This document shows, in pieces, positions 45,099-56,838 of a stretch of DNA of 64,000 nucleotides. Within the stretch, counting starts at the first letter, position 1; every line of letters begins with the position of its first letter. The notes beneath the pieces are model-generated. The model saw only the letters and a list, made by a program, of their open reading frames with translations. It was not told where the DNA came from and made no database searches. A program made the position numbers and the translations under genes. The stretch is from Octopus vulgaris (lineage: Eukaryota): contig OX597837.1 of assembly GCA_951406725.2 (NCBI GenBank), positions 39,370,001 through 39,434,000 of the forward strand, given 5' to 3'.

Positions 45099-47415
45099 CT
45101 AGGCGTCAGTTATATCTTCTTCTGGCAGTTTTATGATTGGAATATCTTGAATGGGGACTGGTTGCAACGATTCGCTACTCTTGCTTTCACCTTTCTCTGC
45201 CTCTTCAGTCCATTCTACGGCCGCTGGTTTCTCTTCAGTCGAATACTCCTCTTCTATACTATCCTGTGGAGACATTCGTCGCACTGAGCTTGCGCTACTG
45301 TCACTACCCAGGCTGGCGCTGCGTGTACTTGGACTTAGACGGTCGTGTCGGTGTACTTCATAGAACGACGGGTCAGTATGCTTTCGCGTTAGCCGATGAC
45401 GTGGATGCGTCCTTGGCGATCGTCGCATACTAATACCTCCTTCCATTTTAGGGTCTTGTCTAAGAAACTGGTTGAAAATTTCGTTTGATTTCTCATCAAT
45501 ACTATAATCTCTGGATAAAGATCGTTCCTTATGCTCACGCTGCTGGGCCCGAAAGAAACGAGTGAAAACTGACAGTTTTCCAGACAAGGAGTTGTCTTCA
45601 AAGCTGTCTCCTGAAGGTTGGTCAGATTTGGAATCTGTTTCCGGTTCATTGATGCTGTCATAAACTTGAACCACTTGCCGTTCTCGACTATACTCTCGTC
45701 TCTTCTTCGAAGCAGTTTTACCATTTCTTCGATCGAAATGGGAGTTACCTGCCGATTTCTTGTGTTTCTTGACCGGAGTATCAGGAGCAGAGCTTTGGAA
45801 CGAAGGGGTGGGCGTGGCTGGCTCGGATGTAGGAGCCGTCACTGGAGGAGGAGGTGCAGCTTGCTTGATTGGAGTCTTTGTACCAACACAACTTTCAATG
45901 TCCATGTTACAAGATGAGTTTCCGGGTGAAGTGCCTGGGGAAGTGCCAGCAGGTGAATGTCCCGGCGAATGACCTGGAGAATGTCCTGGCGACCTTCTCA
46001 AAGAGCTATTCTGGGAAGGGATTTGTGTTTCTAAAGATTTATAACCACTGTCTGCTTTCATTTGTCGTAGTTTACTAGTTTGACTCTCTGTAGTGCTGTC
46101 TGTGTTATCAGTGGTTGATTCAAAGGATGTGGTCGTCACTTCGTGTCGACTTGTATCGGACACTTCCCCATCGGTGTCCACTGTGTCGACGCTATCGAAG
46201 CTGTTGTCCCCACTTGCTACCGGTTGATTGGGTCTCTGAAGTCTTCGGTGTAAGATATCTTTGTAGGATTGGCGCCTGCTTTCGTAATTCGGATGGAGAA
46301 GGTTGCTTGAGTGACGTTGGAGTTCTAGTAAGAACCTCTCTTCTCTTCGAGTGTAGGTGACAGGGCTGCTGCTACTCTGCTGAGCCACAGGTTCAGTGTT
46401 CGACTCAAACGAAGTCGTGTTCGAAGCACCGTGTCCAATGTCCGGGGACTGGTCAGCTGAGTTATCTTCCATTCGAATTGTATCGCTACAATCCCCCTCT
46501 TCTTCTTCCAGCGTAGCCCTCAGATTCCACAGTTCTTTGTATCTTTGGCTACCGTTTAATGTTTCCGTATCATCACTCTCGTTCGACACTATGCCTGCGT
46601 GGTCATAATCGTTTGCAAACTCAAGATGCCTGTCGTTCAGCTGCTCCAAACTCCCTGTGTCGTTGTAGCGTACCTTTGGCGAACCGACATCTGACGCTAA
46701 GTCGTAATCAGCGTTGTGGAAGGGACCTCGTGTGAATTCCGTTATCTTCAGTGTATCGTAATCAGTCGTGTCATCATAAACCTGCATGCTGCTGCTGTCG
46801 GGGAGTTGCCACGTTTTGATGGGGCTCACCGTGTCCATGCTGTGCGATTGTAAAGACTTCGAGGGGATCGTCGACAAGGTGAGGGGCGGTAATGGCGGCG
46901 GTGTCGGTGAGGGGAGAGGTAGAGGTAGCGGGAGAGGCAGTGCCGTGGGCGAAGGCGACGATGAGGACGATGATGGGAGCGGCAGCGCTGACGCCACGAC
47001 GGCTGCTGCCGAGGCCGCTGCTCTCGTTGCTGCCGACACGGCTGGCAGCGGTAGCGGCGGCGGAGGCGGCGGTGGCGGCGAACTTTTCCCGTTTTCTTTG
47101 CAACAATGTTCGGTCAAGTTAGCGTTTTGTTGACAATGGACTTCAACCAAGATCTCTGTTTGAGTCGGCCTGTTGGTCGGAGAGGGGGATTCTTCAATGC
47201 ACTGCTGCCGAGACAGACTCAGGGTGGTTGGCATCATAAAACCATAGACGCATTTGCCGTCCAAACTTCCCGAACTTTTGCACACGAAATTCTTTGCATC
47301 TGTGCTATCATTGTTCATGCTGTTTTGGGATCCAAGTGAGGAATGCTTGCAAAATGGTGTATTAAACTTCTCAACTCGGAGAGTCTTCAAGTAATGGAAA
47401 TCACCTTCTGTATAT
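45099..47415 (-). CDS. CBARP: CBARP/BARP-like (voltage-dependent calcium channel beta subunit-associated regulatory protein), terminal exon
   Basis: ttctacttttcacag|A acceptor, 2317 nt open to TAG. Motifs YTEGDFHYLK, YKELWNLRATLE, LRQMKADSGYKSLE, RDYSIDEKSNEIFNQFLRQDP and RKHTDP match remembered human TEGDFHHLK, YRDLWSLRASLE, LLQMDSGYASIE, RDYSIDEKTDALFHEFLRHDP and RQHSDP, in the same order. Confidence 0.9.
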
Positions 47416-47485
47416 CTGTGAAAAGTAGAAACAATTAAATAGACATGATATATATCTTGTATGTTTTATACACACACACACACAG

Positions 47486-47558
<73 letters not shown>

Positions 47559-47644
47559 TTATTATTTGAGGGAATGAAATCCAAACTTACAAGGAAAAAA
47601 ATTCAATTTAGAAATACTAAATCAAATTTCACACAATATAATAT

Positions 47645-47955
47645 ATATATAAAAAATGAGAAAAAACCCACCTTTATCAATTCAAAATGAACAATTAAAT
47701 TACACCATCTAGAAAATTACATATAATAGAAATATTAAAATTAAAATAACAATAAAATGTCAATGATTAGTAAATTGCAAAAAAATAATAAAAACGTATA
47801 TAATTGGTAGAATAACATTTTAATTATTTTTTTGCAATTTACTTAATCATTGACATTTTATTGTTATTTTAATTTTAATATTTCTATTATATGTAATTTT
47901 CTAGATGGTGTAATTTAATTGTTCATTTTGAATTGATAAAAGGTGTTTTTTTTTC

Positions 47956-47970
<15 letters not shown>
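47645..47970. repeat. long inverted repeat (foldback), ~145-bp arms with a ~25-nt loop
   Basis: cacctttatcaattcaaaatgaac...aattgcaaaaaaataat versus attatttttttgcaatt...gttcattttgaattgataaaaggtg. Confidence 0.92.
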
Positions 47971-47987
<17 letters not shown>

Positions 47988-48257
47988 AAACTAATAGCGA
48001 AGGATTATCAATCTGTGCAAAATACTTCATATTTTTAACTTGTTTCTTATATATCAAAAGGACGTGTTATAATCCTTATCCACTTATACAAAAACAGCCA
48101 TACCAATAATCCACTATACCCCCATCATCAGCTGCCCCACGGATATCATTATGGTTTCGACACCTGGGCAATATATACAAATATATATATAATGTGTGTG
48201 TAGATTTACATTTAACTATTTATCTATCAATTAGTTTGCCTTCAACACACACACACA

Positions 48258-48311
<54 letters not shown>

Positions 48312-48451
48312 CACTTAAACATATATGATATGATAAAGCTTTGTGTAATGTGTGACACCATTGCTGTTTTGTCAGCTGTCTTAAAATTAGAGAACATTTT
48401 GGATTATATGCAAAAATGCACACACACACAAACACACACACACATACATAC

Positions 48452-49384
48452 GCATGTGATTAGCAACTATCCTAAAATGTCGTCTTGGTGCAACCTCCCT
48501 ACGCGGCGCAATGTTGTTGTTAAAACAATTTACAATGCCATCTGCAGAAAAGACTGTCTTAAAGGAACACTGGTGGAATATTCCCACCAAAACTTCAGAT
48601 ATTGTTGTTTGGGACAGAGGGACAACGGTATATACCTTCGTAGAGGTCGGCTTCCCAGCATATATAAATATCTCTTTGAAAATCAGAACCTTCAGCTTCT
48701 ATATTCAGACTATGAATTCATATACATACCAATAATAATTGGAACACTGGAAGCACTCCGTCATTTCGACGACGAGGGTTCCCGTTGATCCGATCAACGG
48801 AACAGCCTGCTCGTGAAATTAACGTGTTAGTGGCTGAGCACTCCACAGACACGTGTACCCTTAACGTAGTTCTCGGGGATATTCAGCGTGACACAAAGAG
48901 TGACAAGGCCGGCCCTTTGAAATACAGGTACAACAGAAACAGGAAGTAAGAGTGAGAGAAAGTTGTGGTGAAAGAGTACAGCAGGGATCCCCACCATCCC
49001 CTGCCGGAGCCTCGTGGAGCTTCTTTAGGTGTTTTCGCTCAATAAACACTGACAACGCCCGGTCTGGGAATCGAAACCACGATCCTACGACCGCGAGTCC
49101 GCTGCCCTAACCACTGGGCCATTGCGCCTCCACAGCAATTGGAACACTAGGTTTTGTTAGTAAATGCTTAAAGGAGAATCTGGATAAACTAGGATTTTCA
49201 GAAAGAGAAAATGAACGGCTGATCCGTACATTACAAGTCCAATCAGTAAGTGGAACAATAAAAATATGCAAGACTTTTCTCAAGTTCCAAATGTGAACAA
49301 CCCAAAGAGGAAGCCTTGTATCTCTGTTGGAAACCGGATCCCTCCTCAGTGGAAGATTTATAATAATTAAAAAATAGAAGAGAC
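48452..49384 (+). mobile_element. decayed RLE-type LINE 3' end with a (CATA)n tail, interrupted by a SINE
   Basis: HVISNYPKMS..., WWNIPTKTSDIVVWDRGTTVYTFVEVGFP, LQLLYSDYEFIYIPIIIGTL|GFVSKCLKENLDKLGF...SVSGTIKICKTFLKFQM*. Confidence 0.75.
48749..49136 (-). mobile_element. SINE family C with a 12-bp TSD
   Basis: TSD aattggaacact at 48737-48748 and 49137-49148. Confidence 0.9.
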
Positions 49385-49547
49385 ACATACATACATACAT
49401 ACATACATACATACATACATACAAACATACATACAATACATACATACATAAATCCTCACTTGTACCCATCGTCATAGGTACTTTAGGCTATGTGCTTACA
49501 AATTTACACAAAAAAATCTTTTTTTGAAGAAAGGGAAAAAGAAACTG

Positions 49548-55918: not shown

Positions 55919-55919
55919 A

Positions 55920-55970
<51 letters not shown>

Positions 55971-55989
55971 GTAATAATAATAATAATGC

Positions 55990-56278
55990 TACTTAACTCA
56001 GATACCAGGAAACCTAAGAATGGCAGAAATTCAAAAGATAGTGCTCATGGGAACTGCTCATATCCTACGCAAAATACTTTCTATGTAATCTCAAGTTTTA
56101 AAACAAACATAATTTTCGTATGGTTGTTTTTAGACATTCACTAGTACAACACTAAATACAAAACCAAATATATGGCACATTAGGCATAACACCAAGACGA
56201 ACTTCCAACTTGTTGTCTCTTGAGGTCTCTGGGTGAGACTTGGAGTCAACTTGTACAAATGTAAAGCAAAAGTCAAAC

Positions 56279-56280
<2 letters not shown>
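55990..56280 (+). mobile_element. R4/Dong-like LINE 3' end plus UTR in (TAA)n
   Basis: QIPGNLRMAEIQKIVLMGTAHILRKILSM* followed by a UTR and a (TAA)n tail. Confidence 0.78.
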
Positions 56281-56313
<33 letters not shown>

Positions 56314-56373
56314 GCAGCAGCAATAGCAGCAGCAGCAGTAGTAGTAGTAGTCGTCGTCGTCGTCGTCGTCGTC

Positions 56374-56406
<33 letters not shown>

Positions 56407-56597
56407 ATCGGAATTGACATGAGAACAGAGCAAGCCGCAAAAAAAAAACTGCTCTGCTGGGGGAGAGCTAGGATTTTGAGATTGGTACTTGAATGTTGAA
56501 TGCCTCCCACGATAATTAACAACCAAGTACCAAAGCTTATAATGTGCGGAAATAGACTCTGTGCGACCCCTGACAGCAGGCTGCTGTCCGCGCTCAC

Positions 56598-56629
56598 AGA
56601 ATCTACCAGAAGAAACAAGACCGAACGTT
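56598..56629 (-). CDS. CBARP: predicted CBARP-like 32-nt micro-exon (RTFGLVSSGRF)
   Basis: ttttacttctcag|A acceptor and T|gtgagc donor; supplies the phase 2 to phase 1 conversion needed to link the TM exon to the downstream exons. Confidence 0.55.
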
Positions 56630-56692
56630 CTGAGAAGTAAAACAATAATAATGATAATTATTATTTATTATAACAATGATATAGCCACTTAC

Positions 56693-56838
56693 CTCCTCAA
56701 AGATTTTTTCCTTTTCACACAGAATTTACATATAATAAAGACAGCCAGTACGATAAAAAGCCCACCTACAACTCCAGCAGTTAACACGATAACTGTTACC
56801 TGTGGAGCGACACTGGAATTAGGTCTTTCCGGTGTTAC
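56693..56838 (-). CDS. CBARP: CBARP-like transmembrane exon (VTPERPNSSVAPQVTVIVLTAGVVGGLFIVLAVFIICKFCVKRKKSLR)
   Basis: tctttgtctctgcag|GTA acceptor and GAG|gtaagt donor; NSS sequon, 23-aa hydrophobic helix, CKFC (human CKRC), basic stop-transfer. Absent from the ORF track. Confidence 0.85.

What the first reader, a model, noticed from the sequence alone, without database searches (positions are those of the whole stretch)
45099..56838. Invertebrate (probably cephalopod) BARP/CBARP orthologue retaining both Cav-beta-binding motifs
Seen: five minus-strand exons splice in frame to about 902 aa, giving an N-glycosylation sequon, a TM helix, CxxC and a long disordered tail. Short motifs are conserved in order, including YKELWNLRATLE (~46506-46541) and RDYSIDEKSNEIFNQFLRQDP (~45449-45512). 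Established, from memory: in mammalian BARP the AID-like YRDLWSLRASLE helix binds the Cav-beta alpha-binding pocket and suppresses Ca2+ current and exocytosis. Inference: this regulatory module is older than vertebrates and operates in mollusc neurons. I know of no functional description outside vertebrates, but cannot check that here.
Basis: partly seen in the sequence, partly recalled or inferred. Interest (0 to 1): 0.75.

Follow-up and report, generated by a model that had tools for sequence, protein, structure and literature searches.

The report
Octopus BARP, a calcium-channel regulator
This is the octopus counterpart of BARP, a membrane protein that damps calcium channels in mammalian cells; it is spliced as read and keeps both binding motifs, so it likely grips the channel's beta subunit too, but a protein-family database already labels such invertebrate copies.

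Summary
The gene is real and is a CBARP/BARP orthologue in an Octopus genome. The five exons have AG/GT ends and give 919 aa, not 902. One transcript contig spans all five. A sixth exon outside the window supplies a likely start Met (929 aa). A profile built only from invertebrates recovers named vertebrate CBARP (E down to 1.3e-20), with hemichordate, echinoderm and amphioxus intermediates and motifs in the same order. Domain I keeps the three residues needed for Cav-beta binding in mouse. A fold model docks it in the AID pocket of octopus Cav-beta (ipSAE 0.76, best control 0.01), though AID-beta structures could explain that pass. The module spans Bilateria, not only molluscs, and Pfam PF27937 (CBARP) already tags 96 of 120 listed hits, so its age is not new to databases. 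My literature searches found no functional study outside vertebrates. Neuronal expression and channel inhibition are untested. The glycosylation sequon is probably coincidental. One new lead: a DSGYxS motif in 158 of 161 homologues fits the beta-TrCP degron.

The parts
56693..56838 (-). Coding exon (first in the window, second coding exon overall): short ectodomain, TM helix, CxxC, basic stop-transfer KRKK
   Evidence: AG/GT ends, phase 0; covered by contigs, with junctions at both ends seen in run X2
56812..56820 (-). NSS sequon, probably unused (about 6-7 residues from the TM)
   Evidence: 5 of 41 non-vertebrate homologues have a sequon, against 4 of 4 vertebrates at 15-26 residues from the TM
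56719..56799 (-). Single TM helix with a GxxGG pattern, followed by CKFC (likely palmitoylation site, inferred)
   Evidence: hydropathy peak 2.8, none other above 1.5; pattern conserved across the taxa
51976..52044 (-). Coding exon, 69 nt
   Evidence: exon 1/2 junction letters in run X2
51246..51325 (-). Coding exon, 80 nt
   Evidence: inclusion inferred from the exact 297-nt offset within one contig
50036..50183 (-). Coding exon, 148 nt, with the RRVSF motif (50103-50089)
   Evidence: exon 4/5 junction in 4 of 4 runs
45099..47415 (-). Terminal coding exon, 2317 nt, starting at RYTEGDFHYLK; long Ser/Pro-rich tail carrying short conserved motifs
   Evidence: covered by contigs in 4 of 4 runs; 123 homologues
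46650..46667 (-). YNDTGS motif upstream of domain I; function unassigned
   Evidence: 132 of 161 homologues that span both domains; absent from all 8 deuterostome sequences checked
46506..46541 (-). Domain I, YKELWNLRATLE: AID-like helix; L, W and R correspond to mouse L426, W427 and R430
   Evidence: mouse peptide and mutants; W, L, R, T and E invariant in 65 of 65 aligned sequences; docking model
46035..46052 (-). DSGYKS, candidate beta-TrCP phosphodegron behind a Ser/Thr/acid-rich stretch
   Evidence: DSGYxS in 158 of 161 homologues, 38 of 4620 shuffles; consensus DSGXXS; function inferred only
45450..45512 (-). Domain II core, RDYSIDEKSNEIFNQFLRQDP; IF and FL correspond to mouse L545-F546 and F549-L550 (mapping inferred from spacing)
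   Evidence: 13-15 of 26 residues identical to five vertebrate CBARPs

Best explanation
This is the octopus orthologue of vertebrate CBARP/BARP, a spliced single-pass membrane protein with a long tail that likely binds the calcium-channel beta subunit and likely lowers Cav1/Cav2 current by competing with the channel's own AID helix. Shown: the gene, its splicing, its homology and the retention of the residues that mouse BARP needs. Predicted by a fold model: domain I forms a helix whose Leu, Trp and Arg sit in the AID-binding pocket of octopus Cav-beta. Inferred from mouse: N-out/C-in topology, domain II as a second Cav-beta contact, displacement of Cav-beta from Cav-alpha1, less calcium entry and less exocytosis. 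My odds: orthology about 0.97, Cav-beta binding about 0.8, net inhibition in octopus excitable cells about 0.6.
For: An invertebrate-only profile (33 sequences) recovers 5 records named CBARP among the 150 listed of 340 hits, E 1.3e-20 to 1.5e-16. Hemichordate, echinoderm and amphioxus proteins are intermediates. Motif blocks lie in the same order, and a tree of these blocks groups deuterostomes (99), chordates (96), vertebrates (100) and arthropods (81). PF27937 is named CBARP. No second significant copy was found in G000 with two parts of the protein. Mouse L426, W427 and R430 are required for binding and are kept. The model scores ipSAE 0.76 in 3 of 3 runs against a best control of 0.01, with runs agreeing in at least 91% of contacts and partner pLDDT at least 63. 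That mark was reached by 51 of 78 solved and 2 of 108 mismatched microbial pairs, and by 39 of 65 and 2 of 126 eukaryotic pairs. Contacts fall on octopus V290, M294, I393 and N439, which map to the pocket residues V241, M245, I343 and N390 of beta2a and to beta3 M196. These positions are identical in 30-31 of 31 invertebrate Cav-betas.
Against: Domain I alone is not significant between octopus and vertebrates (-8.8 bits in the profile; blastp E 0.11-2), so it is identified by position and by intermediates. A search of G000 with bird CBARP did not find this locus (2 weak hits elsewhere, stricter filter used). The fold pass may be recall of solved AID-beta complexes, peptides and disordered chains are outside the tool's calibration, and no scrambled or mutant peptide was run. 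The last Leu of domain II is kept in only 60 of 197 homologues. A rotifer homologue and five unnamed 946-1206 aa homologues lack domain I. A 2026 review says BARP-knockout mice did not show the phenotype expected of a lost inhibitor. The tissue of expression is unknown.
Confidence: 0.68

Rival explanations
1. It binds Cav-beta but works mainly as a membrane or vesicle anchor and reservoir that positions or hands over Cav-beta, with little net inhibition at native levels.
For: Beguin 2014 proposes an acceptor/donor role and finds domain I weaker than the AID. Knockout mice did not behave as expected. The domain II core, which in mouse allows a ternary complex, is at least as widely kept as domain I (197 against 176 of 231, fragments included) and survives in homologues that lack domain I.
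Against: Domain I W, L and R are invariant in 65 of 65 aligned sequences, and that site is mutually exclusive with the AID in mouse.
Confidence: 0.2
2. Its main conserved job lies elsewhere, for example as an accessory factor for nicotinic-type receptors or another membrane partner, through the conserved TM/CxxC and RRVSF-YTEGDF region; Cav-beta binding is secondary.
For: Mammalian BARP is used as an accessory protein for alpha6-containing nAChRs (passages). The TM pattern and the RRVSF/YTEGDF blocks are conserved from octopus to vertebrates, and I saw no function assigned to them in the passages read.
Against: Nothing here links the octopus protein to a receptor. I could not read the primary nAChR paper. 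The arthropod sequences keep domains I and II but mostly lack the RRVSF/YTEGDF blocks.
Confidence: 0.1
3. It is an unrelated disordered membrane protein whose short motifs resemble BARP by chance or convergence.
For: Single octopus-vertebrate blastp segments are weak (best E about 3e-8 in a tiny database), and the reverse genome search missed the locus.
Against: Collinear blocks, a graded series through deuterostome invertebrates, profile E of 1e-20, shuffles far below the real score, and the Pfam family label.
Confidence: 0.02

Closest known systems
Vertebrate CBARP / BARP / C19orf26 / Dos (Beguin et al. 2014, PMC4003244); Pfam PF27937 CBARP
   Same: Short ectodomain, one TM followed by CxxC, long tail, and the RRVSF, (Y)TEGDFHxLK, domain I L-W-x-L-R, DSGYxS, TASxxR and domain II RDYSxDE..[LI]FxxFL blocks in the same order.
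   Different: About 929 aa against 698 in mouse. It has a YNDTGS block and a TTTSFESTTD-type acidic stretch not seen in the deuterostomes checked, and a C-terminal IPII motif seen in most protostome homologues checked but in none of the 9 deuterostomes. Its sequon lies close to the membrane. No functional data exist.
Uncharacterised lophotrochozoan and arthropod proteins (Haliotis, Patella, Mizuhopecten, Aplysia, Lingula, Owenia, Lineus, Parasteatoda, Homarus, Daphnia and others)
   Same: About 30-55% identity over much of the terminal exon. In many genomic ORF hits the frame opens just before R[YF]TEGDF, which suggests a shared intron position.
   Different: NCBI calls them uncharacterised or gives unrelated names (serine-rich adhesin, ecdysone-induced 74EF-like, futsch-like). 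The octopus copy has a Pro/Ala-rich insertion at about aa 260-330.
Cav-alpha1 AID helix bound to the Cav-beta GK pocket (PDB entries such as 1t0j and 1vyt are among the hits)
   Same: Same pocket and a central Trp, according to the model and the mouse data.
   Different: Domain I is a separate motif on a separate membrane protein. No BARP structure exists in the PDB copy searched (0 hits at E up to 10).

Membership tests
CBARP/BARP | Sequence homology to named CBARP proteins, motifs in the same order | tested here: met
CBARP/BARP | Reciprocal best hit | tested here: inconclusive
   Forward: the 5 listed hits carrying the vertebrate RRVSFNE signature are all named CBARP, but most of the 150 listed hits were not named and 190 of 340 were not shown. 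Reverse: bird CBARP did not find the locus in G000 under a stricter filter; the vertebrate profile does score the protein. No whole-proteome reciprocal search could be run.
CBARP/BARP | Pfam PF27937 (CBARP) match | tested here: inconclusive
   The model is not in the local Pfam copy. It is precomputed on 96 of 120 listed homologues, and the top three ESM Atlas clusters carry it (scores 0.90, 0.85, 0.84; recognition 1410, below the tool's confident level).
CBARP/BARP | Single TM near the N-terminus, short ectodomain, no other hydrophobic segment | tested here: met
   topology inferred from KRKK after the helix and from mouse
CBARP/BARP | N-glycosylated ectodomain (mouse Asn25) | tested here: inconclusive
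   A sequon is present but about 6-7 residues from the TM, below the roughly 12-14 residue minimum that I recall for glycosylation; rare in invertebrates, 5 of 41
CBARP/BARP | Domain I with L426, W427 and R430 | tested here: met
   LWNLR against the mouse peptide LWSLR
CBARP/BARP | Domain II with L545-F546 and F549-L550 | tested here: met
   IFNQFL: three of four identical, plus L to I. The mapping rests on LFxxFL spacing, found once each in 4 of 5 vertebrate records; the mouse sequence itself was not obtained.
CBARP/BARP | Physical binding to Cav-beta at the AID pocket | tested here: inconclusive
   Model only: ipSAE 0.76 against 0.01, pocket residues contacted; likeness to AID complexes may drive the score
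CBARP/BARP | Suppression of Ca2+ current and exocytosis | not testable with these tools
   needs electrophysiology
CBARP/BARP | Neuronal or neuroendocrine expression | not testable with these tools
   Spliced contigs show transcription, but the runs carry no library or tissue record
beta-TrCP phosphodegron substrates | DSGXXS motif | tested here: met
   DSGYKS; 158 of 161 homologues; consensus from one passage of PMC2729927
beta-TrCP phosphodegron substrates | Double serine phosphorylation, beta-TrCP binding and turnover | not testable with these tools
   none

The most novel reading that the evidence does not exclude
BARP is an ancestral bilaterian calcium-channel brake, built from short motifs in a disordered tail, and it carries a switch not described in the papers I could search. 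Its near-invariant DSGYxS motif is a beta-TrCP phosphodegron, so phosphorylation would destroy BARP, free Cav-beta and raise calcium entry and release. This would apply to mammals too, and could be tested directly in human cells or in Lymnaea or Aplysia synapses.
Probability: 0.3. Interest if true: 0.6.

Novelty: new member of a known kind. Interest (0 to 1): 0.33.

Why it matters
The orthologue itself is ordinary, and databases already label the family in invertebrates. Its value is practical. It gives a correct gene model and name for proteins now unnamed or misnamed in Aplysia, Lymnaea and other neurobiology models, where identified synapses could settle what BARP does at native levels, a point the mouse knockout left unclear. 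Conservation from octopus to vertebrates also picks out the few short motifs that matter in a mostly disordered protein. One of them is a candidate degron that could explain how BARP is switched off.

Tried and rejected
Local Pfam scan of the terminal exon: 0 families; PF27937 is not in that copy. PDB sequence search with the family profile: 0 hits. The two word-indexed homology searches on this protein listed no vertebrate record; vertebrates appeared only in the full HMMER scan. Reverse search of G000 with bird CBARP missed the locus. ESM Atlas with PF27937 clusters left out gave no usable hit, so there is no information on remote non-bilaterian relatives. No run was on record as RNA ('no RNA holder listed'); the spliced junctions are the evidence for transcripts. 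Run X13 did not cover exon 1. Earlier scan findings: none. The regex for domain II was faulty and was redone. In one search the Pycnogonum blocks were partly mis-anchored by the regex. Two papers were not held (Knowland 2020; a recalled review id). Three intergenic ORFs (15342-15746, 16061-16378, 33381-33686) were dropped from the Pfam scan and not re-examined. Synteny was not analysed: four flanking stretches were fetched but not read. Rejected: the sequon as evidence of orthology, and a cephalopod-specific feature. No holometabolous insect, nematode or cnidarian name appears among the named hits, but only 150 of 340 hits were listed and most are unnamed, so loss or absence is not claimed. 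No supplementary files were opened; Fig. S1 of Beguin 2014 (species alignment) might include non-vertebrates.
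Full report
Setting. The window is G000:C24:39370001-39434000 of a 2.8-Gb genome. A Cav-beta exon of this genome is 100% identical to Octopus records, and its last exon matches the O. sinensis record P0246 in 151 of 151 residues. The organism is therefore an Octopus, likely of the sinensis/vulgaris group.

Gene model. The five exons (56838-56693, 52044-51976, 51325-51246, 50183-50036, 47415-45099, minus strand) have canonical ends and give 919 aa plus stop. 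Contigs of 4 of 4 runs leave the genome at the exon 5 acceptor and continue with the end of exon 4. One 896-nt contig of run X1 lies on exon 5 at record 25-357 and on exon 1 at record 654-800; the model predicts 654, so exons 2-4 are included. Run X2 shows the exon 1/2 junction and an upstream junction. Its letters map once in the genome, to a 49-nt exon 20.8 kb upstream, outside the window. That exon holds a Met with G at -3 and +4, giving a likely 929-aa protein. The frame is open upstream of it and further 5' sequence is unmapped, so the start is inferred. The runs are only guessed to be RNA and have no tissue record.

Homology. The terminal exon finds 123 proteins (120 listed) in molluscs, annelids, a brachiopod, nemerteans and arthropods; 96 of the 120 carry precomputed PF27937, which the ESM Atlas output names CBARP. 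A profile of 33 sequences (named members all protostomes, no vertebrate) adds a hemichordate and echinoderms. [quoted passage not shown] In the other direction, a profile of 7 vertebrate sequences scores the octopus protein 62.4 bits against at most 5.7 in 400 shuffles, but the domain I block alone scores -8.8 bits. A genome search with the bird protein missed the locus. The motif blocks are collinear, and their tree recovers deuterostomes, chordates, vertebrates and arthropods, with weak support inside lophotrochozoans. Two searches of G000 found no second significant copy (a weak E 0.24 hit with a stop).

The two Cav-beta motifs. I read parts 1-3 of 9, the Discussion and search passages of Beguin 2014 (PMC4003244). 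Mouse domain I (aa 422-442) needs L426, W427 and R430 and competes with the AID; domain II needs L545-F546 and F549-L550. Octopus has L-W-N-L-R, with W, L, R, T and E invariant in 65 of 65 aligned sequences. For domain II octopus has IFNQFL. Across 197 homologues with this block the first pair is LF, IF or VF in 189, and the second is FL in only 60 (FS 50, FV 38). The partner is conserved too: G000 encodes a Cav-beta on C2 whose pocket helices match mammalian beta2.

Model of the complex. ESMFold2 was given P0246 residues 66-462 and a 38-residue domain I peptide. It scored ipSAE 0.76 in all three runs, against a best of 3 controls of 0.01; runs agreed in at least 91% of contacts and partner pLDDT was at least 63. 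The mark was reached by 51 of 78 solved and 2 of 108 mismatched microbial pairs, and by 39 of 65 and 2 of 126 eukaryotic pairs; peptides are untested. The tightest contacts are peptide L295, W296, L298 and R299 on Cav-beta M293, M294, A297, L402 and L441. V290, M294, I393 and N439 map by alignment offset to beta2a V241, M245, I343 and N390, named as pocket residues in passages of bioRxiv 10.1101/492181 (the same paper notes that V241 and N390 add little binding energy). M294 maps to beta3 M196. AID-beta complexes are solved, so the pass may come from likeness; it supports binding but does not show it.

Mechanism. Most likely, the protein sits in the plasma or vesicle membrane with its tail inside, domain I occupies the AID pocket, domain II adds a second contact, and Cav-beta is drawn away from Cav-alpha1, which lowers current and release. 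Gene, splicing and motifs are shown; docking is predicted; topology, inhibition and cell type are inferred from mouse. The main rival is anchoring without much inhibition: the authors raise a donor/acceptor role, and a 2026 review passage (PMC12992490) says knockout mice did not show the expected opposite phenotype. A second rival is an accessory role for nicotinic receptors, known for mammalian BARP (passages of PMC11965388 and PMC7271128).

The length is 919 aa from five exons and about 929 with the sixth. The sequon is not a conserved feature: 5 of 41 non-vertebrate homologues have one, against 4 of 4 vertebrates at 15-26 residues from the TM, and the octopus site is about 6-7 residues away, probably too close (limit recalled, not looked up). 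The family is bilaterian-wide. A rotifer homologue (P0229) and five unnamed long homologues lack domain I.

New lead. DSGYxS occurs in 158 of 161 homologues that span both domains, including all five vertebrates, and in 38 of 4620 shuffles. The 40 residues before it average 62% S/T/D/E against 36% overall. It fits the beta-TrCP motif DSGXXS (one passage of PMC2729927). The flanking LxQM and [LIM]E positions are also conserved, so another binding partner is possible. A search for CBARP plus TrCP gave 2 papers: one lists them separately, and the other I saw only as a listing.

Literature and novelty. Searches: BARP/calcium channel/beta-anchoring (20 of 368 listed), CBARP + invertebrate (1 mouse paper), CBARP + Drosophila + ortholog, the full protein name, BARP + nicotinic + accessory, BARP with mollusc terms (none of the 20 listed of 1157 contains BARP), CBARP (40 of 77 listed, no invertebrate title) and C19orf26 (17 listed). 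Two invertebrate preprints had no BARP passage. I found no description of invertebrate BARP in this open library. Subscription papers and supplements were not seen, and Nakao 2015 was seen only as a listing. Because Pfam already tags the invertebrate proteins, the verdict is a new member of a known kind, interest 0.33.

Noticed in passing
window 3724-12744 (+): A multi-exon CAF1-family ribonuclease gene (PF04857 at E 9e-20 and 4e-20) with what looks like a CCCH zinc finger and a basic stretch, resembling TOE1 (name recalled). It lies tail to tail with the BARP gene.
   Followed up: partly
G000:C24:39447684-39447732 (-), locus L005:1500-1548: Upstream 49-nt exon with the likely start Met, outside the window; further 5' exon(s) remain unmapped.
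   Followed up: partly
window 46035-46052 (-): Near-invariant DSGYxS motif matching the beta-TrCP degron consensus, from octopus to vertebrates.
   Followed up: partly
P0229 (Adineta ricciae); P0172, P0191, P0199, P0202, P0204 (unnamed): Divergent homologues that lack the domain I W-x-L-R motif but keep a domain II-like block; natural loss-of-domain variants.
   Followed up: partly
P0121 (Saccostrea cucullata record, 1901 aa): A database gene model fuses the BARP homologue with ERCC6L2-like helicase domains; probably a merged annotation of neighbouring genes.
   Followed up: no
window 48460-48735 (+), inside intron 4: ORF fragment resembling the endonuclease end of a non-LTR retrotransposon (recalled likeness; no Pfam hit).
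   Followed up: partly
window 56880-57230: A highly repeated element just upstream of exon 1, at summed contig depths of thousands in three of four runs and hundreds in the fourth; likely a transcribed SINE-like repeat.
   Followed up: no
named hits: Insect hits are all hemimetabolous (mayfly, cricket, cockroach, hoppers); no fly, beetle, moth or nematode name appeared. A possible loss in genetic model species, untested.
   Followed up: no
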